Source of the DNA: Minisyncoccota bacterium
Lineage (GTDB): Bacteria > Patescibacteriota > Minisyncoccia > UBA9983
Assembly: GCA_041648395.1 (NCBI GenBank)
Contig: JBAZPC010000003.1
Location: 12,801 to 76,800 of the forward strand
Reading direction: 5' to 3'
Length of the DNA stretch: 64,000 nt
Within the stretch, counting starts at the first letter, position 1. Each line of letters begins with the position of its first letter. Made by a program: the position numbers and the translations under genes. The notes under the pieces are model-generated. The model was not told the DNA's origin and did not search any database. It saw only the letters and a list, made by a program, of their open reading frames with translations. Below are positions 695 to 53,211 of this stretch, piece after piece.

Positions 695-985
695 ATGAAG
701 CAAGAGAAAATACGCGAACAAATTTATAAACAACTTCCTTTAATAAAGAGCAAATATAATGTAAAAAAGATTGGGGTTTTTGGCTCGTTTGTCCGAGGTG
801 AGCAAAAGAAAGGGAGCGATGTTGATATTTTGGTGGAATTTAAAAGTCCTATCGGATTTTTTGAATTTATTCGGTTGGAAAATTTCTTAAGCCACACCTT
901 ACACAAGAAAGTGGACTTGGTTTCTAAAAAATCTATCAAGCCGGCGGTTAAAAAAGAAATTATGAGAGAAGTGCAATATGTCTAA
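695..985 (+). CDS. nucleotidyltransferase-domain antitoxin (MNT of MNT/HepT pair)
   Basis: GVFGSFVRGE...GSDVDILVEF minimal nucleotidyltransferase motif. Overlaps the next ORF by 8 nt. Confidence 0.7.
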   Translation: MKQEKIREQIYKQLPLIKSKYNVKKIGVFGSFVRGEQKKGSDVDILVEFKSPIGFFEFIRLENFLSHTLHKKVDLVSKKSIKPAVKKEIMREVQYV

Positions 986-1322
986 AAGAGGAATTAAACT
1001 TTATCTCGGAGATATAAAAGATTCTATTAGAAAAATAGAAAAGTATACGCGCGGTGTTAATTTTGCTGATTTTTCAGGCGATGAAGAATTGATTGACGCG
1101 GTGGCTAGGAACATTTCTATAATAGGCGAAGCCGTCATAAATATACCCGGTGAAATAAAAACAAAAAATCCTGATGTGGCGTGGAAAGAAATAAAGGGCA
1201 TGAGGAACAAAGTCATTCATGAATATTTTGGTGTTGATGAGGAAATTTTGTGGAAAACTATTCAGGAAGATATCCCAGTGTTCAAAAAGCAAATCAACAA
1301 GCTTTTGAAGGGGATAAAATAA
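978..1322 (+). CDS. HepT-like (DUF86) RNase toxin
   Basis: Rx4HxY motif (RNKVIHEY), ~114 aa, translationally coupled to the MNT ORF. Confidence 0.7.
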   Translation: MSKRGIKLYLGDIKDSIRKIEKYTRGVNFADFSGDEELIDAVARNISIIGEAVINIPGEIKTKNPDVAWKEIKGMRNKVIHEYFGVDEEILWKTIQEDIPVFKKQINKLLKGIK

Positions 1323-4382: not shown

Positions 4383-7109
4383 ATGCCTCCATTTGGAAAT
4401 TTTACAACTAAAGCGCAGGAAGCGGTGCGCAAAGCCCATGAAGTGGCGATTGAGCGCGGGCAGAATCATGTTGATGTGATTCATCTTTTGGCCGCTTTGA
4501 CCATGCAAGACGAAAGCATGGTTCTTTCCGTTTTGGACAAATTGCAGGTGGACGTCGTTTTTTTATCCGATTCTATTCTTGACCACATAAGCGAAACGGA
4601 AAAGTCGTCTCTACTTACGCCTTCTTACCAAATTTTTCTCACCACGGAATTGGCGAAAGTTCTTGAGGCCTCGCACAAAATAGCGAGATTCATGAAAGAC
4701 GATTACGTTTCCACCGAACACCTTTTTTTGGCCATTCTGGAAATTCCTTCAAGTGCCAGAGATATGCTCGCAAAATTCAGAATAACAAAAGAAAATACGA
4801 TGAGCGTTTTAAGCGAACTCCGCCAGGCGAATGTCACGGACGTTGATATGCCGAACAAGTCCAAAATTTTGGAAAAATATTCCAGAAATCTCACCAAGCT
4901 CGCGCGCGAAGACAAACTTGACCCGGTGATAGGAAGAGAGGGCGAAATAAAAAGAGTGATGCAAATTTTAAACAGAAGAACGAAAAATAATCCCATACTC
5001 ATCGGCGAAGCCGGAGTGGGGAAGACGGCCATTGTGGAGGGCTTGGCGCAAATGATAGCCAAGGCGGATGTGCCGGAATCGTTGCGCGACAAAGAACTTA
5101 TTTCTCTTGACCTGGGCGCTTTGGTTGCCGGAACGAAATACAGAGGAGAATTTGAAGAACGCTTAAAAACCGTGATGCGCGAGATAGAGCGCGCCAGCGG
5201 GAAAATTATTCTTTTTATAGACGAGATACACACCATTGTCGGCGCGGGCGCCGCGGAGGGAGCCATAGACGCTTCCAATATGCTGAAACCGGCGCTTTCC
5301 CGAGGGGAACTTCACGCCATCGGCGCCACCACCATAAAGGAATACCAAAAGCACATAGAAAAAGATATGGCCTTAACCAGAAGATTTCAACAGGTTTACG
5401 TTGAGGAGCCGTCGATTGATTCCGCCGTTTCAATTATGCGCGGGCTGAAGGAAAAATATGAGCTTCATCACGGCGTGAGAATTACGGATGACGCCATAAA
5501 ATCGGCCGTGAATTTTTCCAGCCGCTACATAACGGACAGATTTTTGCCGGACAAGGCCGTTGATCTCATTGACGAAGCGGCGAGCGCCATGCGCCTTGAG
5601 TTGGACAGCATGCCGGAGGAACTTGAAATAGCGCACAGGGAAATAATGAAATTGGAAATAGAAAAAGAGGCGCTAAAAAAAGAAGCGGAAGGAAAAGATG
5701 AAGCGGCGAACAAGGCGAAAAAAAGAATAAAGGAAATTGAGAAGAGTGTGAGCGATCTCAAGGAAAGAATTTTTTCGCTTGAATTAAAATGGAAAAACGA
5801 AAAGGAATCAATCGCGAACATCAGACAGCTGAAAAAAGATTTTGAAATATTTAAACTGGAAGCGGACACGGCCGAGAGAAAAGTTGATTTGGCTCGCGTG
5901 GCGGAGTTGCGCTACGGAACCTTGCCGTCTTTGGAGAAAAAAATAACGGAAGAGGAAAAGCGATTAAAAAAACTACAGATATCAAGACGCCTATTGAAAG
6001 AAGAGATAACGGAAGAAGATATCGCTGCCGTTGTTTCGCGCTGGACGGGCATTCCGGTTTCCAAAATGCTGGAGAGCGAGGCGGGCAAACTAATGAAACT
6101 TGAAGATGAATTGAGGAAAAGAGTGGTGGGTCAAGATGAAGCTATAATAAAAATCGCCAACGCCATCAGGCGTTCGCGGGCGGGAATTTCTTTTGAAGAC
6201 AGGCCAATCGGTTCGTTTATGTTTTTAGGTCCCACAGGAGTGGGGAAGACGGAGCTCGCCAAGGCCTTGGCGGAATTTATGTTTAACGACGAAAAAGCGC
6301 TCATCAGGGTTGATATGTCAGAATATATGGAACGGCACACCGTTTCCAAATTTATCGGTTCGCCGCCGGGATATGTGGGGCACGAAGAGGGAGGCCAACT
6401 CACGGAGCTTGTCCGCCATCGCCCCTACTCCATAGTTCTTTTTGACGAAATAGAAAAAGCGCATCCGGAGGTGTTCAACATCATGCTTCAAATTTTAGAC
6501 AACGGCCGGCTTACAGACGCCAAAGGCAGGCACGTTAATTTTAAAAATTCCGTTTTGATAATGACATCAAATATCGGCTCTGAATTCGTGCGCAAAATGG
6601 AAAATCTCGGTTTTGCTGTCGCTAAAAACGGCGAAGAAGAAACAGAAAAACAGCTGAAGGAAAAAATAACGCAGGCGCTTGAAGATAAGTTCAGGCCGGA
6701 GTTTTTAAACCGCTTGGACGAGATAATTATTTTCAACAGCCTCACCCACGAAAATCTCAAAAATATCGTAAAAATCCAAATCGGCATCGTTGTTAGCCAA
6801 TTGGCAAAAAAAGATATTGGTCTTGATATTTCCGACCAGGCCCTTTCTTTTTTGGTAAAAGAAGGTTATAATCCGCATTACGGCGCGCGCCCTTTAAAAC
6901 GCTTAATTCAGAATAAAATTTTGAACCAAGCGGCCAATCTCATCATTGCCGGCAAAGTTAGAGAAGGAGGAATTATTTCCGTTGATGTCAAAAACGGCGA
7001 CTTGGCGATAGAGGCCTGCCCGACGGCAAGGCGGGCGGCGGCAAAAGGCAGAGTTAGGGGTAGGTGGCGGAGTGGTCAATCGCACCAGACTGTAAATCTG
7101 GCGGCCTAA
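4383..7109 (+). CDS. clpB: ATP-dependent chaperone ClpB. The ORF reads ~50 nt into tRNA-Tyr.
   Basis: Two AAA+ modules (GEAGVGKT, GPTGVGKT), coiled-coil M domain, sensor-2 GARPLKR. Unusual GC-rich C-terminal tail. Confidence 0.85.
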   Translation: MPPFGNFTTKAQEAVRKAHEVAIERGQNHVDVIHLLAALTMQDESMVLSVLDKLQVDVVFLSDSILDHISETEKSSLLTPSYQIFLTTELAKVLEASHKIARFMKDDYVSTEHLFLAILEIPSSARDMLAKFRITKENTMSVLSELRQANVTDVDMPNKSKILEKYSRNLTKLAREDKLDPVIGREGEIKRVMQILNRRTKNNPILIGEAGVGKTAIVEGLAQMIAKADVPESLRDKELISLDLGALVAGTKYRGEFEERLKTVMREIERASGKIILFIDEIHTIVGAGAAEGAIDASNMLKPALSRGELHAIGATTIKEYQKHIEKDMALTRRFQQVYVEEPSIDSAVSIMRGLKEKYELHHGVRITDDAIKSAVNFSSRYITDRFLPDKAVDLIDEAASAMRLELDSMPEELEIAHREIMKLEIEKEALKKEAEGKDEAANKAKKRIKEIEKSVSDLKERIFSLELKWKNEKESIANIRQLKKDFEIFKLEADTAERKVDLARVAELRYGTLPSLEKKITEEEKRLKKLQISRRLLKEEITEEDIAAVVSRWTGIPVSKMLESEAGKLMKLEDELRKRVVGQDEAIIKIANAIRRSRAGISFEDRPIGSFMFLGPTGVGKTELAKALAEFMFNDEKALIRVDMSEYMERHTVSKFIGSPPGYVGHEEGGQLTELVRHRPYSIVLFDEIEKAHPEVFNIMLQILDNGRLTDAKGRHVNFKNSVLIMTSNIGSEFVRKMENLGFAVAKNGEEETEKQLKEKITQALEDKFRPEFLNRLDEIIIFNSLTHENLKNIVKIQIGIVVSQLAKKDIGLDISDQALSFLVKEGYNPHYGARPLKRLIQNKILNQAANLIIAGKVREGGIISVDVKNGDLAIEACPTARRAAAKGRVRGRWRSGQSHQTVNLAA

Positions 7110-7142
7110 CGGCCTTCGGGGGTTCAAATCCCTCCCTGCCCA
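7058..7142 (+). tRNA. tRNA-Tyr (anticodon GUA), class II long variable arm
   Basis: Acceptor GGGTAGG/CCTGCCC. Anticodon arm CCAGA-CTGTAAA-TCTGG. T arm GGGGG-TTCAAAT-CCCTC. Long variable arm. Confidence 0.8.
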
Positions 7143-7155
7143 CCCGCTTAAAAAT

Positions 7156-8172: not shown

Positions 8173-8243
8173 GGGAGATTAGTTAAATGGTATAATGTTG
8201 GTCTCCAAAACCAACGTCAGGGGTTCGATTCCCTTATCTCCCG
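8173..8243 (+). tRNA. tRNA-Trp (anticodon CCA)
   Basis: Acceptor GGGAGAT/ATCTCCC. Anticodon arm TTGGT-CTCCAAA-ACCAA. T loop TTCGATT. Upstream TATAGT -10-like box. Confidence 0.8.
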
Positions 8244-9133
8244 CTAGTCCACTTTATATCTTTGTTTCTTTTAAACCAAGTCATTTGACGTTTGGCGTAT
8301 TGGCGGTTTTCTAAAATCATTTTTTCTAACATTTCTGTTTTATTAATCTTTCCTTGCAGAAACATTGCCGGATATTTGTATTCAAAACCGAGTTCATAAA
8401 GCCGTTTCCAACTTAATTTGGAGTCATGCAACCTTTTTGTTTCTTTAATTAAACCTTGCCGAAGCATTTTTTTAACCCGTTTTTCTATGCGTTTTTGCAA
8501 TTCTTTTTCCGGTAATTTAATGCCAATAAAAAGATACTGACTACTGACTACTGGATACTGACTACTAACTTTTGGCACCTTGCCAAGAGTTTTTGCTATC
8601 TCTATCGCCCTAATCAGCCGTCGCGGATTTTTTGCATCTATGTTTTTTGCCCTAATTGAATTTAACTTTTTCAGCATTTTGAATAATTTTTCCACAGGCA
8701 TTTTTTCCAGTTTCTTGCGCAATTTCCAATTTGGCGCCACTTCGGCGATTTGCATTCTACCCAGAAGAATATCAATGTAAAAACCAGTTCCGCCACAGAT
8801 GATCGGTGTTTTCCCGCGCGCTAAAATATCCGCAATCGCTTTCTCTCCACATCTTTTAAAGTCCAAGGCAGTAAAAATCTTTTTCGGCGAAGCAATATCA
8901 AGGCAATAATGTGACACGCCTTTCATTTCTTTTTTACTAATTTTCCCCGAGCCGATATTTAGCCCCTTATAAACCTGCCTAGAGTCAGCGGAAATAATTT
9001 CAGCTCGCCCTGACTTATCCCGAACATTGTTGAGGGAGCCGAGTCGAAGGGCAAACTTAACTGCCAGCTCGCTTTTACCAGAAGCAGTGGGTCCAATAAT
9101 GACGATAATTTTATCATTTGTCATTTTACGCAT
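8234..9133 (-). CDS. miaA: tRNA dimethylallyltransferase
   Basis: IIVIIGPTASGKSELAV P-loop, SADSRQVYKGLNIGSGKI. Contains an in-frame heptamer repeat tract. Confidence 0.85.
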   Translation of the reverse strand: MRKMTNDKIIVIIGPTASGKSELAVKFALRLGSLNNVRDKSGRAEIISADSRQVYKGLNIGSGKISKKEMKGVSHYCLDIASPKKIFTALDFKRCGEKAIADILARGKTPIICGGTGFYIDILLGRMQIAEVAPNWKLRKKLEKMPVEKLFKMLKKLNSIRAKNIDAKNPRRLIRAIEIAKTLGKVPKVSSQYPVVSSQYLFIGIKLPEKELQKRIEKRVKKMLRQGLIKETKRLHDSKLSWKRLYELGFEYKYPAMFLQGKINKTEMLEKMILENRQYAKRQMTWFKRNKDIKWTSGR

Positions 9134-9150: not shown

Positions 9151-9987
9151 CTATTTTTGTTCAATATTTTCCAATGGACTTTTAATATTTCTAATTGCCG
9201 GATTGGTGACTTTGGTATAAAGTTGAGTCGTTCTAATATTTTGATGCCCTAATAATTCCTGCACATAACGCACATCCACACCGTTTTCTAATAAATGTGT
9301 GGCAAAACTATGGCGAAGAGAATGAAAAGTGGCGTCTTTTTGAATACCTGCCTTTTTTAATCCGTTTTCAAAAACTTTCTGTGCCGTGCGTTCCGTTAAT
9401 TTTCCTCCCCTGCCGTTCTCAAAAAAGTAATCGTCAACCGGTCTGCTTGTTGCTAAATTTATAATGTCATTTTTGAGCTTCTCGGGGAAAATAGTTATGC
9501 GGTCTTTATCTCCCTTTGCCCCCTTAATATGGATTGTTAATTCTTCAATATTTATATCTTTAATTCTCAAATTTGTTGCTTCACTAACTCGAAAACCGGT
9601 GCCATAAGATAAAGCGATAATTAATTTATGCTTCTGATTTGAAATTGCGTTTATAATATTTTCTATTTCTATCCGAGAAAGAACGACCGGAAGTTTTTTT
9701 GAAGTTTTGGCAAATTTCAAATCAACCGCAATAGCAGATTTCATTACATCGCGGTAAAAATATTTAATCGCGTTAAGATAAAGATTGATGGTTTGCGATG
9801 ATTGCCTCCTTTCCTGTTTTTCTAACAGATATTTTTTGATTACATCAATATTCGGATCTTTTCCAATGGTTCCGATAAAACGAAAAAAATCAGAAAGGCA
9901 TAAAAGGTAGCTCTTAATTGTCTTCCGGCTATAATTGCGCAATTTTAGCTCAATTTCAGTTTTTTGTAATAATTCTTGTAATTGCAT
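9151..9987 (-). CDS. tyrosine site-specific recombinase (XerC/XerD / phage-integrase family)
   Basis: C-terminal catalytic region HSLRHSFATHLLENGVDVRYVQELLGHQNIRTTQLYTKV (R..HxxR..Y). Ends with TAG. Confidence 0.8.
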   Translation of the reverse strand: MQLQELLQKTEIELKLRNYSRKTIKSYLLCLSDFFRFIGTIGKDPNIDVIKKYLLEKQERRQSSQTINLYLNAIKYFYRDVMKSAIAVDLKFAKTSKKLPVVLSRIEIENIINAISNQKHKLIIALSYGTGFRVSEATNLRIKDINIEELTIHIKGAKGDKDRITIFPEKLKNDIINLATSRPVDDYFFENGRGGKLTERTAQKVFENGLKKAGIQKDATFHSLRHSFATHLLENGVDVRYVQELLGHQNIRTTQLYTKVTNPAIRNIKSPLENIEQK

Positions 9988-10151
9988 AAAATTTATATTA
10001 TATTAAAACCAGTCGAAATTTAAGAAAATGCTATCATGTATTCGCACAATATACAAATTATAGCATATTAACAAACAATTATTCGCATAATAACGAGTTA
10101 GCTGAAATAGCAAAAAACAAAATTGGAAAAGTTATTTTTGGAAATTTTTTA

Positions 10152-10188
10152 ACAAAAAAATCCCGAGATAAAAATCATCTCGGGATTG
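10152..10188 (-). terminator. rho-independent terminator for the 10212..10574 gene
   Basis: AATCCCGAGAT...ATCTCGGGATT inverted repeat, U-run on the minus strand. Confidence 0.5.
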
Positions 10189-10211
10189 ATAATGGCTAAC
10201 CTGAACCGCGC

Positions 10212-10574
10212 CTAGATAGCGAGATAAACCTCTTTGATTGGCATTCCCTCGTAGGTGCATGGGAGGTCTTCGCGGTGAAGACGGAAAAATATTTGCCCAT
10301 CCTGCTTGGTTTCGACAAAGCCACCACCTGAAGCATACTTGTGACCATGGGTAACATCGATCACTTTCATTTCAGCGTTCAGCATACCAATCGCGACCTT
10401 GGCGTCGTACAGCTCAGAAAAGTTAGCTCCTTCTGTGGGCAAACATTTTTCCGGCGATCCGAACACTACACAGTATCCGATATCCTCGCTGATTTTTGCG
10501 AAAAATAGAAGCGTGTGCTCATCAGATACACCCTGTACTATTACAACACCCATCTTTCCAATCGTAACTTTCAT
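10212..10574 (-). CDS. hypothetical protein (120 aa)
   Basis: AGGAGG RBS, TAG stop. No recognisable motif. Followed by a 360-bp AT-rich spacer. Confidence 0.45.
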   Translation of the reverse strand: MKVTIGKMGVVIVQGVSDEHTLLFFAKISEDIGYCVVFGSPEKCLPTEGANFSELYDAKVAIGMLNAEMKVIDVTHGHKYASGGGFVETKQDGQIFFRLHREDLPCTYEGMPIKEVYLAI

Positions 10575-10938
10575 GTGTTCCTCCTATTCGTAGTTTTTTG
10601 TTAAAAAATTTCCAAAAATAACTTAGAAATCGACCTCACTAATGGCTTGTTTAATTTAAAGAGCTTTGTAGTAGTATACAAATTTTGATAGAAATGTCAA
10701 CAGTCAGTCGATTTATTTTGTTTTTTGCTACATCAGCTAACACGGCACATGCGGTTAAAAAATTTTGCGTTATTAGACACTTAAATCAAGGTTTGCAAAA
10801 TTTTTGAACCCAAATTGCGCTGACGAAATGGTAAGTTTAGTGATATAATCAAGATAGGCGATAATTAACAAATTTAATCAATAATCCACGGCGCAACTTC
10901 GCATGTGCCGATACGTTAAGTGAAATAATTAAAGCATT

Positions 10939-11941: not shown

Positions 11942-12002
11942 TGCCCGGGAGAGGGGTCGAACCTCCATGGGATTACTCCCACACGATTTTGAGTCGTGCG
12001 CG
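11942..12002 (-). pseudogene. partial tRNA-Leu copy (anticodon arm through 3' acceptor strand), diverged with compensatory stem changes
   Basis: Aligns to nt ~27-85 of the adjacent tRNA-Leu(CAA). T-stem GGAGG/CCTCT and variable-arm changes are compensatory. No 5' acceptor or D arm. Confidence 0.55.
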
Positions 12003-12023
12003 CCCCGCACTAAATTTTCCCGA

Positions 12024-12107
12024 TGCCGAAGGAGGGGGTCGAACCCTCATGGAATTACTTCCACACGATTTTGAGTCGTGCGCGTCTGCCAATTCCGCCA
12101 CTTCGGC
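12024..12107 (-). tRNA. tRNA-Leu (anticodon CAA), class II
   Basis: Acceptor GCCGAAG/CTTCGGC, disc A. Anticodon arm CACGA-CTCAAAA-TCGTG. Long variable arm. T arm GAGGG-TTCGACC-CCCTC. Confidence 0.8.
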
Positions 12108-12238
12108 AAAATTAGTGCGGGGTAAATCTGCCAACCTGCCCCGTAGTTAATGCAAAGCATTATACTTCGGGGTTCCGCCACTTTCTGAATCTTAATAAAT
12201 TTGCGTTCAAAAATCAATTTTAGTATAATTCCACTATT

Positions 12239-14635: not shown

Positions 14636-14680
14636 TGTGTTGTATAGTATACTCTCTTTTAGAATAAAAATTAAGGATAT

Positions 14681-14758
14681 TGGGATGTAGCTCAGCCTGG
14701 TCTAGAGCGCCTGAACTTAAAATTCAGGAGGTCGCAGGTTCGAATCCTGCCATTCCCA
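14681..14758 (+). tRNA. atypical tRNA-like gene: anticodon UAA in a 7-nt loop on a 6-bp anticodon stem, short variable loop, T1-C72 acceptor mismatch
   Basis: D arm GCTC-AGCCTGGTCTA-GAGC. Anticodon arm CCTGAA-CTTAAAA-TTCAGG. T arm GCAGG-TTCGAAT-CCTGC. Acceptor TGGGATG/CATTCCC (6 of 7 pairs). Confidence 0.45.
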
Positions 14759-14804
14759 ACCAAACCTTTTTTAGCACATTTTAAATTTAAGTAAGGAGGG
14801 AGAA

Positions 14805-17296: not shown

Positions 17297-18151
17297 TCAA
17301 ATTTTGCGGATTTCGCCGCCGGATTCTTTAATGTAGCCGTTGAGTTGCATCATGGAAAGGGCAGGGCTTATTTCGTGCGCTGGCAGGTCCAGTTTTCTGA
17401 TGAGTTCGTCTTTTGACATCGGGTCAGTGAGCGCTTCCATAATTTTTTGTTCAAGAGGCGAGAGCGATTGAAGGTCTAGTTTCAAATTTTCTCCTTCGCG
17501 TACGATATCAAAGGCGTCCAAAATATCATCGGCGGAAGTGACAGGAATTGCGCCCATTTTAATTAATTTATTCGTACCTTTGGAATTTTCCTGAAAAATT
17601 GAGCCGGGCACGGCAAAAACATCTCTATTGAAATCCAGAGAAAAATTGGCGGTAATGAGCGCGCCACTTTTTTCCGGCGCCTCTATTACCAATGTGCCTC
17701 TGCACAGGCCGGCGATAATTCTGTTCCTTTGGGGAAAAGTGTGGAGTCCGGCCGGATAATCCCATGGGAATTCGGAAACAAGCGCTCCGCCGGCGCTCAC
17801 AATATCTTCTGCCAATTTTTTATGAGAATGGGGATGGAGAACTTTTTCGTCCAAGCCGGAACCGGGCACGGCAATGGTCGGCAGATTATTTTCAATTGCC
17901 GCGCGGTGGGCGATGGAGTCAATGCCAAGCGCCAATCCGCTCACGATAACGAAGCCGTAACCTCTCAACCCTTCAATAATTTTCTCGCACACCTCTTTTC
18001 CGTAATTGGAAAATTTACGCGTGCCGACAACCGCTAGCCAAATTAAATCTTCGCTTGGCAACTCGCCGATGACATACAAATCCTTCGGCGGGGAAGGAAT
18101 TTCTTTAAGTAAGGCAGGAAATTGGTTTTGTTTCAAAGTTTTTCTTTGCAT
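17297..18151 (-). CDS. dprA: DNA processing protein DprA (Smf)
   Basis: Rossmann region GLALGIDSIAHRAAIENNLPTIAVPGSGLD...AGGALVSEFP. Confidence 0.8.
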   Translation of the reverse strand: MQRKTLKQNQFPALLKEIPSPPKDLYVIGELPSEDLIWLAVVGTRKFSNYGKEVCEKIIEGLRGYGFVIVSGLALGIDSIAHRAAIENNLPTIAVPGSGLDEKVLHPHSHKKLAEDIVSAGGALVSEFPWDYPAGLHTFPQRNRIIAGLCRGTLVIEAPEKSGALITANFSLDFNRDVFAVPGSIFQENSKGTNKLIKMGAIPVTSADDILDAFDIVREGENLKLDLQSLSPLEQKIMEALTDPMSKDELIRKLDLPAHEISPALSMMQLNGYIKESGGEIRKI

Positions 18152-18271
18152 AATTACTATTCTAGCATATCAACTTAGTTTTTATTAAAATCTTTTTTAT
18201 ATCTTCCGCCAGTTAGCCAAATCACGCATATGCGGAAAATGACTAACTGAATTAGGTAAACTTGCAAAATT

Positions 18272-18733
18272 TTGGCGGAGGTGGTAGAAATTAGGGTAGA
18301 AAAAGGTATTTTAAAAAACAAAAAGGAGGATAAGATAATGTTCGGTTTAAGTGACGAAATCAGAGAACTTGAGGCAAATGCATGTCGCAAGGAACGTGTT
18401 TCTTGCGCTGATTGCGGTTATAGTTTTTGGTCTTGTTATGCTATAGGAAATTTTTGTCCTAATTGTAAATCTACCAATTTTAAATCTGTTCCATGGTGGT
18501 ATGGGAGAGATATACCGTCTTCAATCCATGGTAAAAAATTAGCAGATGGCAGAAAAGTCGTGCCAAAGTTTTTTGTGGAAGTTAGGGCAAATATCCACCC
18601 CGTAAATGGAGGCGACCCATTCCTTTCATGGTTGGAAGCAGAAAAATGGTTTAAGGACCATGGATGGGAAATAATGGGCGATGCTGAGTGGTACGCCCAT
18701 AAATATTACAGGAATAGTTTTTTTGAGAAATAA
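18272..18733 (+). CDS. hypothetical zinc-ribbon protein (153 aa)
   Basis: CADCGYSF...CPNCKS. Strong RBS AAAGGAGG. Lies in a duplicated promoter/terminator cassette. Confidence 0.45.
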   Translation: MAEVVEIRVEKGILKNKKEDKIMFGLSDEIRELEANACRKERVSCADCGYSFWSCYAIGNFCPNCKSTNFKSVPWWYGRDIPSSIHGKKLADGRKVVPKFFVEVRANIHPVNGGDPFLSWLEAEKWFKDHGWEIMGDAEWYAHKYYRNSFFEK

Positions 18734-18743
18734 AATAATAATT

Positions 18744-18782
18744 GTCCGCAGTGAAAAAATATACACTGCGGACTTTTTATTT
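18744..18782 (+). terminator. rho-independent terminator
   Basis: GTCCGCAGTG...CACTGCGGAC 10-bp stem plus TTTTT. Confidence 0.55.
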
Positions 18783-18906
18783 GCTCAAAATGTTGCAAAA
18801 ATCTGCTATCGCCTAAAATAGTAACACTTTATAAAATTTAAAATTGGGCAAACTTGCAAAAATTTTGCGGAGGTGGTAGGAATTAAGACAGAAAAATTTA
18901 CATGTA

Positions 18907-18980
18907 GCTAGGGAAGCTCAAGTGGCAAGAGCGCCAGACTCTAAATCTGGAGGTTGGCGGTTCAAATCCGCCCCCTGGCA
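18907..18980 (+). tRNA. type-I tRNA with anticodon CUA (reads UAG; putative amber suppressor, amino-acid identity unknown)
   Basis: Acceptor GCTAGGG/CCCTGGC (U3-G70), disc A73. D arm GCTC-AAGTGGCAA-GAGC. Anticodon arm CCAGA-CTCTAAA-TCTGG. Variable loop AGGTT. T arm GGCGG-TTCAAAT-CCGCC. Confidence 0.7.
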
Positions 18981-18993
18981 GCCATGCAAATAA

Positions 18994-19024
18994 AGGGCGG
19001 TTGAAATACACCGCCTTTTTGTTT
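18994..19024 (+). terminator. rho-independent terminator after tRNA(CUA)
   Basis: GGCGGT...ACCGCC stem plus TTTTTGTTT. Overlaps the track's upstream serS start, which supports the serS start at 19058. Confidence 0.5.
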
Positions 19025-19057
19025 GCTCAAAACAGGTGGATTTGGTATTATAAAATT

Positions 19058-20332
19058 ATGTTAGACATCAAATTTATCAGGGAACATTTGGATTTAGTAA
19101 AAGAGGCCGCGAGGAAAAAGCGCATTGATTTTGATGTGGATAAACTTATTGAAGTTGACGACAGGCGTTTGAAGCTTTTAAAAGAAGTTGAAGAAATGAG
19201 AGCTAGGCAAAACACGGCGAGCGATAAAATAGCGCAGATGTCGGGCGATGAAAGGCAGGATGCTATTAATGAAGTAAAAAAATTAAAAGAGGAATTAACA
19301 ACCAGCGAGGGCGCGCTGAAGATAATAGAAAAAGAATGGGAGGAAATGATGTTATTGGCGCCGAATGTGCCGGACCCCTCCGTGCCGGAAGGCGAGAGCG
19401 ACGCGGATAATGTTGAAGTGCGCAAGTGGGGCGAGCCGACAAAATTTGGCTCCCCGCCCAGGGATTTTGAACCGAAAGGCCATATTGAACTAATGGAAAA
19501 ATTAGGGCTTGTTGATTTGGAACGAGGCGCGAAGGTTGCCGGCTTCCGCGGATATTTTTTGAAAGGTGATGGCGCCATGCTCGCGTTTGCCGTTATGCAA
19601 TTCACTTTGGAAAAATTGGCGGAGCAGGGTTTTGAGCCGTTCATCGCGCCGTCGCTTGTGCGCGAAGATAGTTTTTTGGGAACGGGCTGGCTGCCGCAGG
19701 GAAAAGATGAAATTTATAAAACGCAAGACGATTTGTATTTGGCGGGAACAGCCGAAGTGCCGATGATGGGATTTCATAAAGATGAAATTTTACGCGAGGA
19801 GGATTTGCCAAAAACTTACGTCGCGTTTTCGCCGTGCTTCAGGCGGGAGGCGGGAAGCTACGGCAAGGACACGAAAGGAATTTATCGCTTGCACGAGTTT
19901 ATGAAAATTGAGCAGATTGTTTTGTGCGAGGCGGACCATCAGGAATCCGTGAAATGGCACGAGGAGATTACGCGCAATTCCGAGAATATCATGCAAGCGC
20001 TGAAAATTCCGTATCGCGTGGTGGTGAACTGCGGCGCCGACCTCGGTTTGGGGCAAGTGAAAAAATATGACATTGAGGCGTGGGTGCCGTCATGGAAGAG
20101 ATACGGCGAGACGCATTCGTCTTCTTATTTTCATGACTTTCAAACGAGGCGCCTGAATATCCGCTATAAAGACAAGGAGGGAAAAATTCGTTTCGCGCAT
20201 TCGCTAAACAACACTGCCATCGCCGTCCCGCGCATTTTAATTTCGCTTTTGGAAAACTATCAACAAAAAGACGGCACCGTCATCGTCCCTGAAGTTTTGA
20301 GAAAATATCTCGGCAAAGACATAATTTCGTAA
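19058..20332 (+). CDS. serS: seryl-tRNA synthetase
   Basis: MLDIKFIREHLDLV N-terminal coiled coil. Class II motifs FRREAGS..., GETHSSS. Confidence 0.85.
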   Translation: MLDIKFIREHLDLVKEAARKKRIDFDVDKLIEVDDRRLKLLKEVEEMRARQNTASDKIAQMSGDERQDAINEVKKLKEELTTSEGALKIIEKEWEEMMLLAPNVPDPSVPEGESDADNVEVRKWGEPTKFGSPPRDFEPKGHIELMEKLGLVDLERGAKVAGFRGYFLKGDGAMLAFAVMQFTLEKLAEQGFEPFIAPSLVREDSFLGTGWLPQGKDEIYKTQDDLYLAGTAEVPMMGFHKDEILREEDLPKTYVAFSPCFRREAGSYGKDTKGIYRLHEFMKIEQIVLCEADHQESVKWHEEITRNSENIMQALKIPYRVVVNCGADLGLGQVKKYDIEAWVPSWKRYGETHSSSYFHDFQTRRLNIRYKDKEGKIRFAHSLNNTAIAVPRILISLLENYQQKDGTVIVPEVLRKYLGKDIIS

Positions 20333-31057: not shown

Positions 31058-31086
31058 TTATTTGAATTCGTTAAAAACCTTACCAA

Positions 31087-31157
31087 CTGGGGGACATGGA
31101 TTCGAACCATGATTAACGGCTTCAAAGGCCGCTGTCCTACCATTAGACGATCCCCCA
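31087..31157 (-). tRNA. tRNA-Gln (anticodon UUG)
   Basis: U1-A72, G73. Acceptor TGGGGGA/TCCCCCA. Anticodon arm GCGGC-CTTTGAA-GCCGT. T arm CATGG-TTCGAAT-CCATG. Confidence 0.8.
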
Positions 31158-31162
31158 AAATT

Positions 31163-31411
31163 CTATATTTTTTCTAAAATACTTAATTTTTCTTTTGACC
31201 CTTTATAACTTTTTAAATATTTTTCTCTTTCCCTCGCATCCAGCCTATTCTGAAATATTTCTTTGTAAACTATTATAAATGGTGTTCTGCTTTTCGTCGA
31301 CCTTACAAAACCCTTATTATGATAATTTAATCTTATTATTAAGTCCTTGGTAATACCTACATAATAACCATTATCCTTTAAACTTTTTAAAATATAAACG
31401 TAGTAATTCAT
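31163..31411 (-). CDS. standalone GIY-YIG nuclease domain protein (YhbQ/COG2827-like)
   Basis: YYVYIL...GYYVGIT...R..H...E motif spacing. Starts 0 nt after the tRNA-Gln fragment. Confidence 0.7.
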   Translation of the reverse strand: MNYYVYILKSLKDNGYYVGITKDLIIRLNYHNKGFVRSTKSRTPFIIVYKEIFQNRLDAREREKYLKSYKGSKEKLSILEKI

Positions 31412-31454
31412 AGCTGTCCTACCATTAGCCTGCCCGGCCAGGGACGATCCCCCA
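31412..31454 (-). pseudogene. tRNA-Gln 5' fragment (nt 1 to ~29) interrupted by a 15-nt GC-rich insert CCTGCCCGGCCAGGG
   Basis: TGGGGGATCGT[insert]CTAATGGTAGGACAGC is identical to tRNA-Gln positions 1-11 and 12-27. Insert at 31429-31443. Confidence 0.55.
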
Positions 31455-31525
31455 ATATTTTCGCCTTTTTTATTTTTAACATAAATTCGCCAATTTTGCT
31501 ATAATCTGTGCTATAATAAATTTAT

Positions 31526-31921
31526 ATGACAAGTTATGTAATAAACATAGAAAAAGAGACAATAGATAATGCGAATTTTCGCAAAGTTCTTTTTACGGCA
31601 AAAAACAGCCAGCTGGTTGTTATGAGCTTGAAGCCGAAAGAAGAAATCGGCGAGGAGACGCACGGCTTGGACCAATTTTTGAGAATTGAAGAAGGGGAGG
31701 GGAAGGCGGTTTTGGACGGCGTGGAGCATGCCATCAGCGCCGGTTTCGCCGTCGTTGTTCCCGCAGGCGTGAAGCACAATATTATAAATACTTCCAGTGA
31801 AAAAGAAATGAAAATTTACACAGTTTATTCTCCGCCGAATCATCGCGACGGCGTCATGCACGCGACAAAAGAAGAGGCCGAAAAAGACGACGAACATTTT
31901 GACGGAAAAACAACAGAGTAA
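31526..31921 (+). CDS. cupin-domain protein
   Basis: Cupin motifs G(X)5HxH-like (EETHGLDQFLRIEEGEG) and PAGVKHNI. Confidence 0.6.
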   Translation: MTSYVINIEKETIDNANFRKVLFTAKNSQLVVMSLKPKEEIGEETHGLDQFLRIEEGEGKAVLDGVEHAISAGFAVVVPAGVKHNIINTSSEKEMKIYTVYSPPNHRDGVMHATKEEAEKDDEHFDGKTTE

Positions 31922-33162
31922 TGACAAAAGATAAAGAAATAAAAACAGAAGCAAATTTTTACGGACTGGGAATCGCCCCCAGTCTTTTGGATATTTTAGG
32001 AAAATCGGGATTTAAGTCGCCGACGCCGATTCAGACGCAGGCGATTCCCGTGGCGATTCAAGGCAAAGATATTGTCGGCATTGCCCAAACCGGCACAGGC
32101 AAGACATTGGCTTTCGGCATTCCCATGCTCCAGCGTTTGAATCAAATCAAGGGGCAGGGTTTGGTGGTTTTGCCGACGCGCGAGTTGGCTTTGCAGGTGG
32201 AAGAGGCGCTTATTGGAATCGGCCGCGACATAAAATTAAGGACGGCGGTGCTAATCGGCGGCGCTCCATCGGGACCGCAGAAGCGGGCCATTGCAAACAA
32301 ACCGCAAATTATTATTGCCACCCCCGGGCGGCTGATAGACCATCTCCAGCAAAAAAATATTCATCTGAATGACGTCCGAATAATTGTGCTGGATGAAGCC
32401 GACAGAATGCTGGACATGGGGTTCGCTCCGCAAATAAATCAAATTCTTCGCGTACTGCCCAAAGAGCGCCAGACCATGCTTTTTTCCGCCACTATGCCGC
32501 CGGAGATTATGAAGATGGCGGCTGGGCACATGAAGCTGCCTATTCGGGTGGAAATCGCGCCGACGGGCACAACCGTTGAAAAAGTGACCCAAGAACTTTT
32601 TATCGTATCCGGCGCGCAAAAATTCTCTCTTTTAAAAAAATTACTGGAAAGTTATTTGGGCTCGGTTCTTATTTTTTCCAGAACCAAGCATGGCGCCAAA
32701 AAAATCATGCAGCAGTTAAAGGCCGCCGGTGTCAGCGCGGCGGAAATTCATTCCAATCGCTCTTTAAACCAAAGGCGGGAAGCGTTGGCGGGATTCAAGT
32801 CGGGCAGATATCGGACGCTGGTTGCCACTGATATCGCTTCGCGAGGAATAGACGTAAGCGGTATTGAGTTGGTGGTGAATTACGATTTGCCTTCAACCTC
32901 CGATGATTACGTGCATCGCATCGGCCGCACCGCTCGCGCCGGCGCCAGCGGACACGCCATCACTTTTGCCAAACCGGATGAGTTCAGAGAAATTCGCGCC
33001 ATTGAGCGCCTTATCAGGAAAAGTTTGCCTGTATCAAAATTACCGGAACTGCCCGTCGTGCGGACAATTCCAACACCACCTTCAAATCCTCACAGGGCTA
33101 GGCCATCGTATAGCCGCCCTAAAAGAAATTTCCGCCATAGCAGATTTCGCTCAAGAAAATAA
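31921..33162 (+). CDS. DEAD-box ATP-dependent RNA helicase
   Basis: Q motif, AQTGTGKT, PTRELA, DEAD (VLDEADRM), SAT, HRIGRTARAG. Arg-rich tail. Confidence 0.85.
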   Translation: MTKDKEIKTEANFYGLGIAPSLLDILGKSGFKSPTPIQTQAIPVAIQGKDIVGIAQTGTGKTLAFGIPMLQRLNQIKGQGLVVLPTRELALQVEEALIGIGRDIKLRTAVLIGGAPSGPQKRAIANKPQIIIATPGRLIDHLQQKNIHLNDVRIIVLDEADRMLDMGFAPQINQILRVLPKERQTMLFSATMPPEIMKMAAGHMKLPIRVEIAPTGTTVEKVTQELFIVSGAQKFSLLKKLLESYLGSVLIFSRTKHGAKKIMQQLKAAGVSAAEIHSNRSLNQRREALAGFKSGRYRTLVATDIASRGIDVSGIELVVNYDLPSTSDDYVHRIGRTARAGASGHAITFAKPDEFREIRAIERLIRKSLPVSKLPELPVVRTIPTPPSNPHRARPSYSRPKRNFRHSRFRSRK

Positions 33163-33167
33163 ATTTT

Positions 33168-34991
33168 ATGGAAATTAGAAACATTGCAATTATTGCCCAT
33201 GTTGACCACGGGAAGACCACTTTGACCGACGCTTTGTTGCGCCAGACGGGCGTCGGTGAGGAAGGCGTTTCTATGGATTCAAACGCGCTTGAACTTGAGC
33301 GCGGCATTACTATTTATTCAAAAAACGCCGCGATATTTTATCCCTCGACAAGCTCGGGACGAGTCGCAACGAAAATAAATATCGTTGACACGCCCGGCCA
33401 TGCCGATTTCGGTTCCGAAGTGGAGCGTGTTTTGCGTTCTATTGATTCTGTTTTACTGGTTGTGGACGCGCAGGAAGGACCGATGCCGCAAACCCGTTTC
33501 GTTTTGAAAAAATCATTGGAACTCGGTTTGAAGCCGATTGTGGTAATAAATAAAATTGACAAGCCAGCCGCCGATCCGGCGCGATGCGAGGAGCAAGTGC
33601 TGGAATTATTTCTTGAGCTCGGCGCGACGGACGAGCAGGCGAATTTTCCTGTCGTCTATACAAACGGCCGCGCCGGAATCGCCAAGAAAAAACTGGCGGA
33701 TAAGTCGGACAATCTTGAGCCGCTTTTGGAAACAATTCTTGAACATATTCCTTCTTCTGCTAAGGCAACGGACGGCAAAGTCCTCATGCTGCAGCCGTTT
33801 AATCTCGGTTATGATAATTTTTTGGGGCGGCTCGCCGTGGGCCGTGTCCATGAAGGCGTTGTCATGCCGAATCAAAATATTTTTATTAAAAAGCCGAATG
33901 CCGCGCCCGCAACGCCTGAGCGTAGCGATGGCGGGCGGGGCGAAACGCGCGCAGGAAAACTTTCAAAAATTTTTACTTTCAAAGGGCTTCAGAGAATTGA
34001 GGCAACAAGCGCCAACGCCGGCGACATTGTTTTGGTCGCGGGACTTTCAAATATCGATATCGGCGAGACAATCACGACTGACGAAAACGCGCAGCCGCTT
34101 CCTGCCATCGCCATTGATGAGCCGACCATCGCGCTAACTTTTTTGGCGAACAATTCTCCTTTCGGCGGGCGAGAGGGAAAATTTGTGACATCACGGCAAC
34201 TGCGCGAACGTCTTGAACGCGAGCTTGAGGTTAATGTCGGACTAAAAATTGATTTCAGTGTTGCCGATAATTTTCGGGTTTTGGGCCGAGGCGAATTGCA
34301 TGTCGCGATATTGCTTGAAAATATGCGCCGCGAAGGATTTGAACTTCAGGTTTCCCAGCCGCAGGTAATCATTCGGGAAGAAAACGGCGTTAAGATGGAA
34401 CCGTTTGAAGAAGTAATAGTTGATACGCCAAGCGAATATCAAGGAGTAATAATTGAACGGCTCGGAACGCGCGGTTTTGTTTTGCAAAATATGCGCGCTC
34501 ACGACGCCAACACGCGCCTTATTTTTAGCGGGCCAACCCGGGGGCTTCTTGGTTATCGCAATCAGTTTGTCATTGATACGAGAGGCGAGGGCATTCTTGC
34601 TTCGCGTTTTACGAATTTTTCTCCATACGCGGGAGAAATAAAAAAGCGTCCGACTGGTTCCATGGTTTCCATGATTAAGGGCAAAGCGCTTGGCTACGCT
34701 TTGTGGAATTTGCAGGAGCGGGGCATGCTTTACATCGGCCCGGGCGCGGAAGTGTACGAGGGCCAGGTGATTGGCAACACGGCGAAAGGAGAGGAAATGT
34801 TTGTAAATCCAACAAAAGGAAAACAACTCACCAACATGCGGGCATCCGGTTCGGATGACGCCATAAATCTCGTGCCACCCTTTCTTCTCACTGTTGAGCG
34901 GGGGCTGGAAGTTATGGCGGAAGACGATTATTTGGAAATCACGCCAAAGAGTGTGAGATTGCGGAAACAGCATTTTACGGCAAAGAAATGA
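33168..34991 (+). CDS. typA: translational GTPase TypA/BipA
   Basis: [29 protein letters not shown]. Carries an in-frame GC-rich element ([10 protein letters not shown]). Confidence 0.9.
33903..33940. repeat. GC-rich imperfect-palindromic in-frame element (typA copy, encodes [10 protein letters not shown])
   Basis: The core CCCGCCATCGCTACGCTCAGGCGTTGCGGGCG recurs at 41671-41705 (fmt) and, with 3 substitutions and a 1-nt deletion, at 59365-59408 (mnmA). Confidence 0.8.
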
Positions 34992-53131: not shown

Positions 53132-53211
53132 GCAAGATTTTATCCCACCAAGGCAAGATTTTATCCCACCAAGGCAAGATTTTATCCCACCAAGGCAAGA
53201 TTTTATTCTGC
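53132..53211. repeat. intergenic 21-nt tandem repeat GCAAGATTTTATCCCACCAAG, 3 perfect units plus 1 partial
   Basis: Units at 53132-53152, 53153-53173, 53174-53194, partial 53195-53211. Lies in the divergent promoter region between 52865(-) and 53286(+). Confidence 0.75.

What the first reader, a model, noticed from the sequence alone, without database searches (positions are those of the whole stretch)
18907..18980. Canonical type-I tRNA gene with anticodon CUA (amber-reading) in a genome that uses TAG as a stop codon
The gene has a clean cloverleaf. The acceptor has 7 pairs including U3-G70, with A73. D stem is GCTC/GAGC. The anticodon arm is CCAGA-CTCTAAA-TCTGG with U33, C34-U35-A36 and A37. 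It has a 5-nt variable loop, a GGCGG-TTCAAAT-CCGCC T arm, its own promoter-like motif and a terminator. Anticodon CUA pairs with UAG. In this window TAG is used as a stop for smc, the recombinase, and the 120-aa and 89-aa ORFs. So this is either a suppressor tRNA, possibly acquired since it sits in a duplicated cassette, or a recent anticodon mutant of a sense tRNA (Lys CUU, Gln CUG, Glu CUC or Trp CCA are each one change away). Its anticodon stem-loop differs from tRNA-Tyr in this window only at position 34.
Basis: partly seen in the sequence, partly recalled or inferred. Interest (0 to 1): 0.85.

Follow-up and report, generated by a model that had tools for sequence, protein, structure and literature searches.

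The report
Orphan amber-suppressor tRNA, CPR bacterium
A well-formed tRNA gene that reads the UAG stop codon, with its own terminator and probably its own promoter, is a recent insertion in the chromosome of one Patescibacteria species that still uses UAG as a normal stop; it is most likely a natural nonsense suppressor whose amino acid and purpose are unknown.

Summary
Window 18907-18980 (+) is a canonical class-I elongator tRNA with anticodon CUA (ARAGORN; Rfam tRNA 65.6 bits). It is base-for-base identical in three assemblies, so the anticodon is not a sequencing error. The host is a Paceibacteria-type CPR bacterium. In all 54 related genomes scanned the tRNA is absent, and in the 26 tabulated the conserved dprA|serS spacer has a median of about 90 nt. 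Here it is 907 nt and holds two small units, an ORFan (orf131) and the tRNA. Each sits behind the same 55-nt promoter-like element and ends in a terminator. A sister lineage has a membrane-protein gene in the tRNA's slot. TAG is a genuine stop here: it ends SMC, an integrase, a glycosyltransferase and a histidine kinase at their natural ends. No gene in 64 kb needs UAG read-through. The tRNA is not a point mutant of the lineage's tRNA-Gln, Glu or Trp. Its anticodon arm equals the resident tRNA-Tyr arm apart from G34C, and it shares that tRNA's T loop and A73, on an unrelated short-variable-loop body. No homologue was found in viral, metagenome or phage collections. Best reading: a recently acquired, probably functional amber suppressor. 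This is a new member of a known kind and moderately interesting.

The parts
18907..18980 (+). tRNA gene, anticodon CUA (reads UAG); class-I elongator cloverleaf with A73, U3-G70 and A8; CCA not encoded
   Evidence: ARAGORN; Rfam RF00005 65.6 bits; tertiary pairs and cloverleaf energy; identical in three assemblies
18842..18896 (+). Promoter-like element, copy 2 (TTGCAA-N17-TGGTAGGAAT), ending 10 nt before the tRNA
   Evidence: Direct repeat D9, 85% identical to 18250-18304; only two matches in the window, 0 expected; conserved before four different units in two species; core motif found intergenically only at this slot in 0.96 Mb of Paceibacteria DNA. Promoter function is inferred; the strict sigma-70 scan does not call it
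18992..19019 (+). Intrinsic terminator after the tRNA (10-bp stem, T run)
   Evidence: Terminator scan
19015..19032 (+). Post-terminator motif CTTTTTGTTTGCTCAAAA, copy 2; TTGCTC may be the -35 of the serS promoter (inferred)
   Evidence: Same 18-mer with one R position at 18773-18790; about one such match is expected by chance, so it is weak evidence on its own
18250..18304 (+). Promoter-like element, copy 1, in front of orf131
18338..18733 (+). orf131 (listed as a 153-aa ORF from TTG 18272; the ATG at 18338 matches the called 131-aa protein): a zinc-ribbon-containing ORFan and first unit of the insertion
   Evidence: No Pfam or PHROG hit; only two close homologues among 5.8 billion proteins; 22 remote homologues without known function; AF2 model pLDDT 57
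18744..18790 (+). Hairpin GTCCGCAGTG...CACTGCGGAC plus T run (terminator of orf131) and post-terminator motif copy 1
   Evidence: Read from the sequence; motif match. The scan missed it because its loop exceeds 8 nt
17297..18151 (-). dprA, left border of the conserved divergent pair dprA|serS into which the two units are inserted
   Evidence: Pfam DNA_processg_A; synteny in relatives
19058..20332 (+). serS (seryl-tRNA synthetase), right border of the insertion site
   Evidence: Pfam Seryl_tRNA_N + tRNA-synt_2b; synteny
7058..7144 (+). Resident class-II tRNA-Tyr(GUA), intact; its anticodon arm (16 of 17), T loop and A73 match the CUA tRNA
8234..9133 (-). miaA (tRNA isopentenyltransferase); expected to modify A37 in the A36-A37-A38 context that this tRNA has (inferred from established MiaA specificity)
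   Evidence: Pfam IPPT 218 bits
10939..11982 (-). MiaB-like radical-SAM methylthiotransferase (UPF0004 + Radical_SAM); possible second step of A37 modification (inferred)

Best explanation
This is a structurally intact amber-suppressor tRNA gene that a single Paceibacteria (CPR) species gained recently. It occupies a hypervariable slot between dprA and serS. SHOWN: the gene, its cloverleaf, its CUA anticodon, its terminator, its absence from relatives, the shared flanking elements, and the fact that TAG is still a stop codon here. INFERRED: it is transcribed from the slot-specific TTGCAA-N17-TGGTAGGAAT element, processed, and given its CCA end. A37 is inferred to be modified by the MiaA and MiaB-like enzymes encoded 8-10 kb away. 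It would then be charged by a host synthetase and compete with RF1 at UAG codons. The consequence would be partial read-through of the roughly 13-20% of genes that end in TAG, adding tails of 2-28 residues. The most likely amino acid is tyrosine. The tRNA has the resident tRNA-Tyr anticodon arm with only G34 changed to C (the classical supF change), and it also has U35, A36, A73, G1-C72 and the Tyr-type T loop. Glutamine or lysine, the usual mischarging fates of CUA tRNAs, are the alternatives. The benefit to the cell is unknown. It may be tolerated at low efficiency, or it may serve a TAG-containing gene or element outside this window.
For: The tRNA is called by two independent methods. All tertiary pairs are canonical and the cloverleaf is isoenergetic with the MFE. 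The anticodon loop CUCUAAA has U33, A37 and A38, the context of efficient UNN-reading tRNAs, and the arm matches the resident tRNA-Tyr at 16 of 17 positions. tRNA-Tyr anticodon stems differ among five relatives (CCAGG, CTAGA, TCAGA), so the match is to the local variant. A terminator follows the gene. A conserved upstream element is shared with three other expressed-looking units in two species. The sequence is identical in three assemblies. No tRNA lies between dprA and serS in 49 relatives' serS loci or in the two clpB loci that reach that spacer, while the synteny is conserved. A sister lineage (L158) has a 116-aa membrane ORF in the same promoter-terminator slot. miaA and a miaB-like gene are present. 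TAG stop usage is lower than in GC-matched relatives (6 of 47 vs 42 of 177), in the direction expected under suppressor pressure, but this is not significant (p=0.11).
Against: There is no direct evidence of expression, charging or read-through. The strict sigma-70 scan does not call the upstream element a promoter. U8, which is nearly universal in tRNAs, is A here. The tRNA lacks the long variable arm that bacterial TyrRS normally contacts (established knowledge, not tested here), so Tyr identity is uncertain. It is known from one species only, so there is no evolutionary depth to show purifying selection. No gene in 64 kb needs UAG read-through. TAG still terminates conserved genes at their natural ends. 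No homologue exists in the collections searched.
Confidence: 0.5

Rival explanations
1. It is an intact-looking but functionally idle gene. On this view it is a by-product of rapid cassette turnover at the dprA|serS hotspot that is poorly expressed, poorly charged or poorly used by the ribosome. It would be effectively neutral and destined for loss.
For: It is restricted to one species, absent from all relatives and without homologues. The slot demonstrably swaps cargo: L158 has orf116, and L011 has an IS200/RAYT-like ORF. It has A8 instead of U8. Its body is a hybrid, with a Tyr-type anticodon arm on a class-I scaffold, which may fit no synthetase well. There is no significant depletion of TAG stops and no client gene in the window.
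Against: The cloverleaf and tertiary network are flawless, the anticodon-loop context is optimal, and a terminator and a conserved upstream element are present. The sequence is identical in three independent assemblies. A dead tRNA gene would be expected to show stem mismatches.
Confidence: 0.25
2. It belongs to the biology of a mobile element or phage that uses TAG as a sense codon. It could be a captured phage suppressor, a leftover 'moron', or a host copy exploited by such a phage. Its client genes would then lie outside this window.
For: CUA suppressor tRNAs are typical of TAG-recoded phages and prophages that infect standard-code hosts (10.1101/2021.08.26.457843), and many occur in IMG/VR contigs. 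L010, a contig with a CUA tRNA carrying the same anticodon arm, gains coding density when TAG is read as sense, 0.57 to 0.75. The gene is a recent insertion in a cargo-swapping slot. Other small mobile features are present in the window: a GIY-YIG ORF beside tRNA-Gln, an integrase with inverted repeats, and a duplicated tRNA-Leu end.
Against: There are no phage or conjugative structural genes around it, and the neighbours are housekeeping genes in conserved synteny. The window itself is standard-code, 0.95 vs 0.97. No viral or phage tRNA is a close relative; the best phage BLAST hits are generic tRNA-Lys, Ile, Met and Asn at about 80% over 55 nt. The upstream element is shared with resident units of a sister lineage rather than with any phage.
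Confidence: 0.15
3. The tRNA is used outside ribosomal decoding, for example as an aminoacyl donor for cell-wall, lipid or peptide synthesis or as a regulatory or decoy RNA. The CUA anticodon would be incidental.
For: Only circumstantial. It is an extra, orphan tRNA next to an aminoacyl-tRNA synthetase gene, and dedicated non-proteinogenic tRNAs are known in some bacteria (established knowledge).
Against: It keeps every feature of an elongator tRNA, including the T loop and the anticodon-loop context tuned for decoding. No Fem, MprF, cyclodipeptide-synthase or LanB-type gene is nearby. It lacks the long variable arm needed for SerRS (established knowledge).
Confidence: 0.05
4. UAG is reassigned or ambiguously decoded genome-wide in this organism, that is, it uses an alternative genetic code.
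For: There is a chromosomal UAG-reading tRNA, apparently with its own promoter. TAG stop usage is somewhat lower than in relatives (13% vs 24%, p=0.11).
Against: TAG ends SMC, the integrase, PMT_2 and the histidine kinase exactly where the Pfam domains end. Read-through tails are short and non-coding-looking. All same-frame ORF pairs joined only by TAG are antisense artefacts or independent genes. Coding density does not rise when TAG is read as sense.
Confidence: 0.03

Closest known systems
supF-type amber suppressor (tRNA-Tyr with anticodon GUA changed to CUA, E. coli tyrT)
   Same: The anticodon arm is that of the resident tRNA-Tyr with only G34 changed to C. It has U35, A36, the A37-A38 context, A73, G1-C72 and the Tyr-type TTCAAAT T loop.
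   Different: It is not a mutated copy of the tRNA-Tyr gene. The resident class-II tRNA-Tyr is intact at 7058-7144, and the CUA tRNA has a 5-nt variable loop and unrelated acceptor, D and T stems. It arose in nature, not under laboratory selection.
Suppressor tRNA(CUA) genes of TAG-recoded phages and prophages (Lak, crAss-like, Garnet, Topaz; 10.1101/2021.08.26.457843)
   Same: It is a CUA tRNA acting in a cell whose own genes use the standard code. It is an accessory, horizontally mobile-looking gene.
   Different: It lies in a conserved housekeeping locus of the chromosome with no phage genes nearby. It has no sequence relative among IMG/VR or INPHARED tRNAs. No TAG-containing client genes are in view.
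tRNA-Pyl (pyrrolysine tRNA, anticodon CUA)
   Same: Anticodon CUA; ARAGORN's automatic label.
   Different: tRNA-Pyl has a 6-bp anticodon stem, a 3-nt variable loop, a tiny D loop and no G18G19/T-loop consensus (established knowledge). This tRNA is fully canonical, and no pylS or pylBCD genes are in the window.
tRNA-Gly(UCA) of Gracilibacteria/Absconditabacteria (code 25, UGA read as Gly)
   Same: It is a chromosomal stop-codon-reading tRNA in a member of the Patescibacteria/CPR (PMC13059738, PMC8629427).
   Different: It reads a different codon. In code 25 the reassignment is genome-wide and clade-wide, whereas here UAG remains a stop and the tRNA is confined to one species.

Membership tests
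Canonical elongator tRNA (Rfam RF00005) | Cloverleaf scoring above the family's gathering threshold | tested here: met
   65.6 bits vs 29, full-length match; also called by ARAGORN
Canonical elongator tRNA (Rfam RF00005) | Conserved tertiary nucleotides (U8-A14, R15-Y48, G18-U55, G19-C56, U54-A58, U33, purine 37) | tested here: inconclusive
   All are present except position 8, which is A rather than U. A8 also occurs in several phage-contig tRNAs, so it is probably tolerated.
tRNA-Pyl | 6-bp anticodon stem, 3-nt variable loop, shortened D loop without G18G19 | tested here: not met
   5-bp stem, 5-nt variable loop, 9-nt D loop with GG
tRNA-Pyl | pylS/pylBCD genes in the genome | tested here: inconclusive
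   None found in the genes scanned with Pfam, which cover most of the 64-kb window; the rest of the genome was not available
tRNA-Sec / allo-tRNA with CUA anticodon | 8/5 or 9/4 acceptor/T helices and a long variable arm | tested here: not met
   7/5 helices and a 5-nt variable loop
supF-type tRNA-Tyr suppressor | Anticodon arm of tRNA-Tyr with G34 changed to C | tested here: met
   16 of 17 identical to the resident tRNA-Tyr, differing only at position 34; relatives' tRNA-Tyr stems differ
supF-type tRNA-Tyr suppressor | Bacterial class-II tRNA-Tyr body (long variable arm; homologous acceptor, D and T stems) | tested here: not met
   5-nt variable loop; D stem GCTC/GAGC vs GCGG/TCGC; different acceptor and T stems
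Point-mutant suppressor of tRNA-Gln, tRNA-Glu or tRNA-Trp (supE/su7 type) | Body near-identical to the lineage's sense tRNA | tested here: not met
   Paceibacteria tRNA-Gln shares at most 45 of 71 positions, tRNA-Glu at most 39 of 71, and the window's tRNA-Trp is far lower
Point-mutant suppressor of tRNA-Lys(CUU) | Body near-identical to the lineage's tRNA-Lys | not testable with these tools
   No Paceibacteria tRNA-Lys was among the loci that could be fetched. tRNA-Lys from other organisms are no closer than other isotypes, at about 50 of 71.
Phage suppressor tRNA of a TAG-recoded phage | Encoded in a phage or prophage genome whose genes contain in-frame TAG | tested here: not met
   Housekeeping neighbours in conserved synteny; no gain in coding density with TAG read as sense; no TAG-interrupted genes
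Genome-wide UAG reassignment | In-frame TAG in conserved genes; TAG not used as a terminator | tested here: not met
   TAG ends four Pfam-annotated genes at their natural ends; RF1 presence could not be checked outside the window

The most novel reading that the evidence does not exclude
This species may be caught at the very first, 'ambiguous-intermediate' step of a UAG reassignment in a CPR bacterium. It would carry a chromosomal amber suppressor, apparently with its own promoter, built on a new class-I scaffold with a tRNA-Tyr-type anticodon arm. The suppressor would be tolerated alongside RF1 while TAG stops begin to decline (13% here vs 24% in relatives). A second lineage-specific hybrid tRNA 4 kb away carries a Leu(UAA)-type anticodon arm on a class-I body. 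That hints that this lineage generates or acquires re-engineered tRNAs.
Probability: 0.08. Interest if true: 0.85.

Novelty: new member of a known kind. Interest (0 to 1): 0.45.

Why it matters
Natural nonsense suppressors in standard-code cells are the proposed entry point for stop-codon reassignment. The CPR is the bacterial group where such a reassignment (UGA to Gly) became fixed across whole clades. A chromosomal UAG-reading tRNA in a standard-code Paceibacteria species would be a natural test case. It could show how much read-through a minimal-genome cell tolerates, which synthetase adopts a CUA tRNA, and whether TAG-recoded phages exist for CPR hosts. Practically, annotators should not call it tRNA-Pyl and should not switch the translation table for this genome. 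The tRNA is also a candidate natural class-I amber suppressor for genetic-code engineering. The evidence covers only one species and is all in silico, so the value is as a lead and not yet as a finding.

Tried and rejected
1. tRNA-Arg ancestry. Phage-contig tRNAs sharing the A8-A9/GCTCAA body were mostly tRNA-Arg. The metagenome scan with a free anticodon then showed the same D-arm and T-loop in Met, His, Arg, Thr, Gln and Trp tRNAs, so the body is not diagnostic and I dropped the lead.

2. Kinship with the only other A8-A9 CUA tRNA family (L102, L123, L128). The similarity is limited to generic positions, and those short contigs gain coding density with either TAG or TGA read as sense. This was uninformative.

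3. Exact anticodon-arm search in viral contigs. Most hits were tRNA-Leu(UAG) read on the other strand. The single CUA tRNA found (L010) has an unrelated body.

4. BLAST against 50,697 phage genomes. It returned only generic hits at about 80% identity to tRNA-Lys, Ile, Met and Asn.

5. Function of the neighbouring orf131. It has no Pfam or PHROG hit and a low-confidence AF2 model (pLDDT 57), so I ran no fold search. It has 22 remote homologues without annotation. L158 has orf131 without the tRNA, so a functional link is unlikely.

6. TAG-interrupted genes. Seven same-frame ORF pairs are joined only by TAG. Five are antisense to annotated genes. One is the independent YceG gene. One is a spurious ORF antisense to a Cupin_2 gene joined to a GIY-YIG ORF.

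7. Apparent TAG-sense gain in relative L011. It is due to spurious intergenic ORFs.

8. Extending the contig to enlarge the gene and tRNA sample. Only about 3 kb was gained on one side, and the AlaRS look-up found nothing.

9. Literature. I found no report of an amber suppressor in Paceibacteria or Parcubacteria.

Full report
OBSERVATION. ARAGORN finds six tRNAs in the window, one at 18907-18980 (+) with anticodon CTA. Rfam's tRNA model matches the same coordinates and strand, full length, at 65.6 bits against a gathering score of 29. The cloverleaf is isoenergetic with the MFE, -31.2 vs -31.4 kcal/mol. Every canonical tertiary contact is present: A15-U48, G18-U55, G19-C56, G26-A44, U54-A58, G10-G45, G22-G46, A9-A23, U33 and A37. 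The only departure is A8 in place of the near-universal U8. CCA is not encoded, as for most other tRNAs here. The tRNA and 330 nt of flanks are identical in two further assemblies, Logan SRR8449827 and ENA ERZ27249422.

HOST AND LOCUS. The window is ordinary chromosome from a Patescibacteria (CPR) bacterium of the Paceibacteria/Parcubacteria type. The best SerRS match in GTDB species genomes is 76% identical, to MAG nzgw438, followed by many Paceibacteria MAGs. The genes are housekeeping: SMC, TrmD, ClpB, MiaA, a MiaB-like enzyme, ParB, RelA/SpoT, TopA, DprA, SerRS, FtsQ, DnaX, BipA, Fmt, Def, PriA, MurA, MreB, LeuRS, MnmA and AlaRS. The order clpB, tRNA-Tyr, tRNA-Trp, miaA, miaB-like, parB, relA, topA, dprA(-) | serS(+), ftsQ is conserved in relatives. 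In 26 relatives the dprA|serS spacer has a median of about 90 nt. Here it is 907 nt. None of the 49 relatives' serS loci scanned has a tRNA in that spacer, and neither do the two clpB loci that reach it (L257, L258). The tRNA is therefore a lineage-specific gain and not a mutated ancestral sense tRNA at this position.

ANATOMY OF THE INSERTION. The spacer holds two units. Unit 1 is a 55-nt element (18250-18304), then orf131 (ATG 18338 to 18733), then a hairpin with a T run. Unit 2 is the same element at 85% identity (18842-18896), then the tRNA 10 nt later, then a terminator at 18992-19019. The element occurs nowhere else in the window, with 0 matches expected by chance. Its conserved core, TTGCAA-N17-TGGTAGGAAT, is found intergenically only at this slot across 0.96 Mb of Paceibacteria DNA. 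Both units end with CTTTTTRTTTGCTCAAAA. A sister lineage, with orf131 78% identical (Hainich groundwater, L158), has the same layout. Its second slot, between the same upstream element and a terminator, holds a 116-aa membrane-protein ORF instead of the tRNA. The closest GTDB genome (L011) has yet other cargo in this spacer, an IS200/RAYT-like ORF. So the site is a cargo-swapping hotspot, and the tRNA is one interchangeable, separately terminated unit that is probably also separately promoted. Promoter activity of the element is an inference; the strict sigma-70 consensus scan does not call it.

IS TAG A STOP HERE? Yes. Among non-overlapping ORFs, 14 of 68 (at least 70 aa) or 6 of 47 (at least 150 aa) end in TAG. 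TAG ends SMC, the XerC/D-type integrase, a PMT_2 glycosyltransferase and a histidine kinase just where their Pfam domains end. Read-through would add only 2-28 non-coding-looking residues. The one long same-frame follower is an independent YceG/MltG gene with its own N-terminal membrane segment. A systematic list of ORFs joined only by TAG gave seven candidates. Five are antisense to annotated genes and one is the YceG case. The seventh (31058-32011, minus strand) resolves into a spurious ORF antisense to a Cupin_2 gene plus a GIY-YIG ORF with its own start codon. Coding density is 0.95 under the standard code and 0.97 with TAG read as sense. A TAG-recoded phage contig, by contrast, goes from 0.57 to 0.75. 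TAG stop usage is lower than in GC-matched relatives, 13% vs 24%, but not significantly so (Fisher p=0.11). There is no evidence of recoding and no client gene in 64 kb.

ORIGIN AND IDENTITY. The tRNA is not a point mutant of this lineage's tRNA-Gln, tRNA-Glu or tRNA-Trp. With the anticodon masked, they share at most 45, at most 39 and far fewer of 71 positions, respectively. tRNA-Lys could not be tested. None of them had a CUA anticodon. Viral contigs contain many CUA tRNAs, but none resembles this one. BLAST against 50,697 phage genomes gives only generic similarity. The one specific resemblance is to the resident tRNA-Tyr. The anticodon arm is identical at 16 of 17 positions, differing only by G34 to C. 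The T loop TTCAAAT is shared, whereas the window's tRNA-Gln, tRNA-Trp, tRNA-Leu(CAA) and the odd UAA tRNA have TTCGAAT, TTCGATT or TTCGACC. A73 and G1-C72 are shared. The D loop is similar. Both acceptor stems contain a U-G, A-U, G-C, G-C run, offset by one pair. tRNA-Tyr anticodon stems differ among five relatives (CCAGG, CTAGA, TCAGA), so the match is to the local variant. The rest of the body is unrelated and is class I rather than class II. I read this as a hybrid or convergent design. It has the decoding end of a supF-type suppressor on a different scaffold.

MECHANISM (inferred). The tRNA is transcribed from the slot element, processed, and given its CCA end. MiaA and the MiaB-like enzyme, both encoded in the window, are expected to modify A37 in the A36-A37-A38 context; this follows from established MiaA specificity. 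The tRNA would then compete with RF1 at UAG. Tyrosine is the best guess for the amino acid, because U35, A36, A73 and G1-C72 are bacterial TyrRS determinants and supF shows that C34 is tolerated. The missing long variable arm counts against it. CUA tRNAs are also classically mischarged by GlnRS and LysRS. The U3-G70 pair is the reverse of the alanine determinant G3-U70, so I do not take it as evidence for alanine. These identity rules are established knowledge from E. coli and were not tested in this lineage.

COMPARISON AND NOVELTY. It works like a natural amber suppressor, of the supF type or the phage tRNA-Sup(CUA) type. It is not tRNA-Pyl, because the architecture is wrong and no pyl genes are in view. 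It is not tRNA-Sec or an allo-tRNA. It does not sit in a phage and it is not part of a recoded genome. I found no report of an amber suppressor in Paceibacteria. According to the code-screening paper, all known bacterial stop-codon changes reassign UGA (PMC8629427). It is therefore a new member of a known kind, with an unusual scaffold and setting.

VERDICT. The tRNA gene is real (near certain). It was recently acquired in a variable slot (well supported). The genome uses the standard code (well supported for this window). Function as an active suppressor is plausible but unproven (about 0.5). Interest is moderate, 0.45. It is a good lead for genetic-code evolution in the CPR, but it rests on one species and has no functional data.

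Noticed in passing
window 14681-14758 (+) (ARAGORN 14680-14762): A second odd, lineage-specific tRNA. ARAGORN calls it tRNA-Leu(UAA), but it has a 5-nt variable loop (class-I body), a 6-bp anticodon stem (CCTGAA/TTCAGG), an irregular acceptor stem and an encoded CCA (Rfam tRNA 54 bits). Its anticodon arm is the same 17-mer as in ordinary class-II tRNA-Leu(UAA) of phage contigs. Like the CUA tRNA, it therefore carries a class-II-type anticodon arm on a class-I scaffold. No relative has a tRNA between relA and topA. A near-consensus TTGACA-N17-TATACT lies just upstream.
   Followed up: partly
window 31163-31470 (-), beside tRNA-Gln 31086-31158 (-): An 82-aa GIY-YIG nuclease ORF (Pfam 52.7 bits) is wedged between the intact tRNA-Gln(UUG) and a partial duplicate of that tRNA's 5' part (TGGGGGATCGTC...CTAATGGTAGGACAGC, interrupted by 14 nt). 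This looks like a small homing-type insertion at a tRNA gene.
   Followed up: partly
window 10094-10744, next to the integrase at 9151-9987 (-): Nested inverted repeats flank a 120-aa ORFan (10212-10574): 31 nt perfect at 10129-10159/10594-10624 and 30 nt at 90% at 10094-10123/10715-10744. They lie beside a XerC/D-type tyrosine recombinase. The ENA assembly breaks here; contigs L238 and L160 overlap at about window 10452-10878. This suggests an invertible (phase-variable) segment.
   Followed up: no
window 11953-12002 and 12035-12084: A 50-nt copy, 92% identical, of the 3' half of tRNA-Leu(CAA) (gene at 12022-12108, minus strand) lies 82 nt downstream and overlaps the start of the MiaB-like ORF. 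It may be an att-like scar of an integrative element.
   Followed up: no
L011 1176-3104 (closest GTDB relative, MAG nzgw438): The same dprA|serS spacer is expanded to 1.9 kb. It carries an IS200/RAYT-like 254-aa ORF (HYHLLL motif) and a 58-aa zinc-ribbon ORF, so the site is an insertion hotspot in more than one lineage.
   Followed up: partly
window 695-985 (+) and 978-1322 (+): An MNT (nucleotidyltransferase) / HepT (HEPN RNase) toxin-antitoxin pair lies directly after smc.
   Followed up: no
window 39934-41550 (+): A 538-aa protein contains five roughly 49-nt cysteine-rich repeats (GPGGCKGPQECD..C) and a proline-rich MQPPP-type repeat region. It has no solid Pfam hit and ends in TAG. It is probably a secreted or surface repeat protein.
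   Followed up: no
window 33904-33945, 41662-41703 and 59382-59414: A 42-nt GC-rich sequence (CGCCCGCAACGCCTGAGCGTAGCGATGGCGGGCGGGG...) recurs in inverted orientation at 93% identity, inside or next to the bipA and fmt coding regions. A third, partial copy lies near 59.4 kb. It is an unexplained dispersed repeat.
   Followed up: no
window 53132-53206: There are 3.5 perfect tandem copies of a 21-nt unit (GCAAGATTTTATCCCACCAAG) just upstream of the 182-aa ORF at 53286-53834, which precedes leuS.
   Followed up: no
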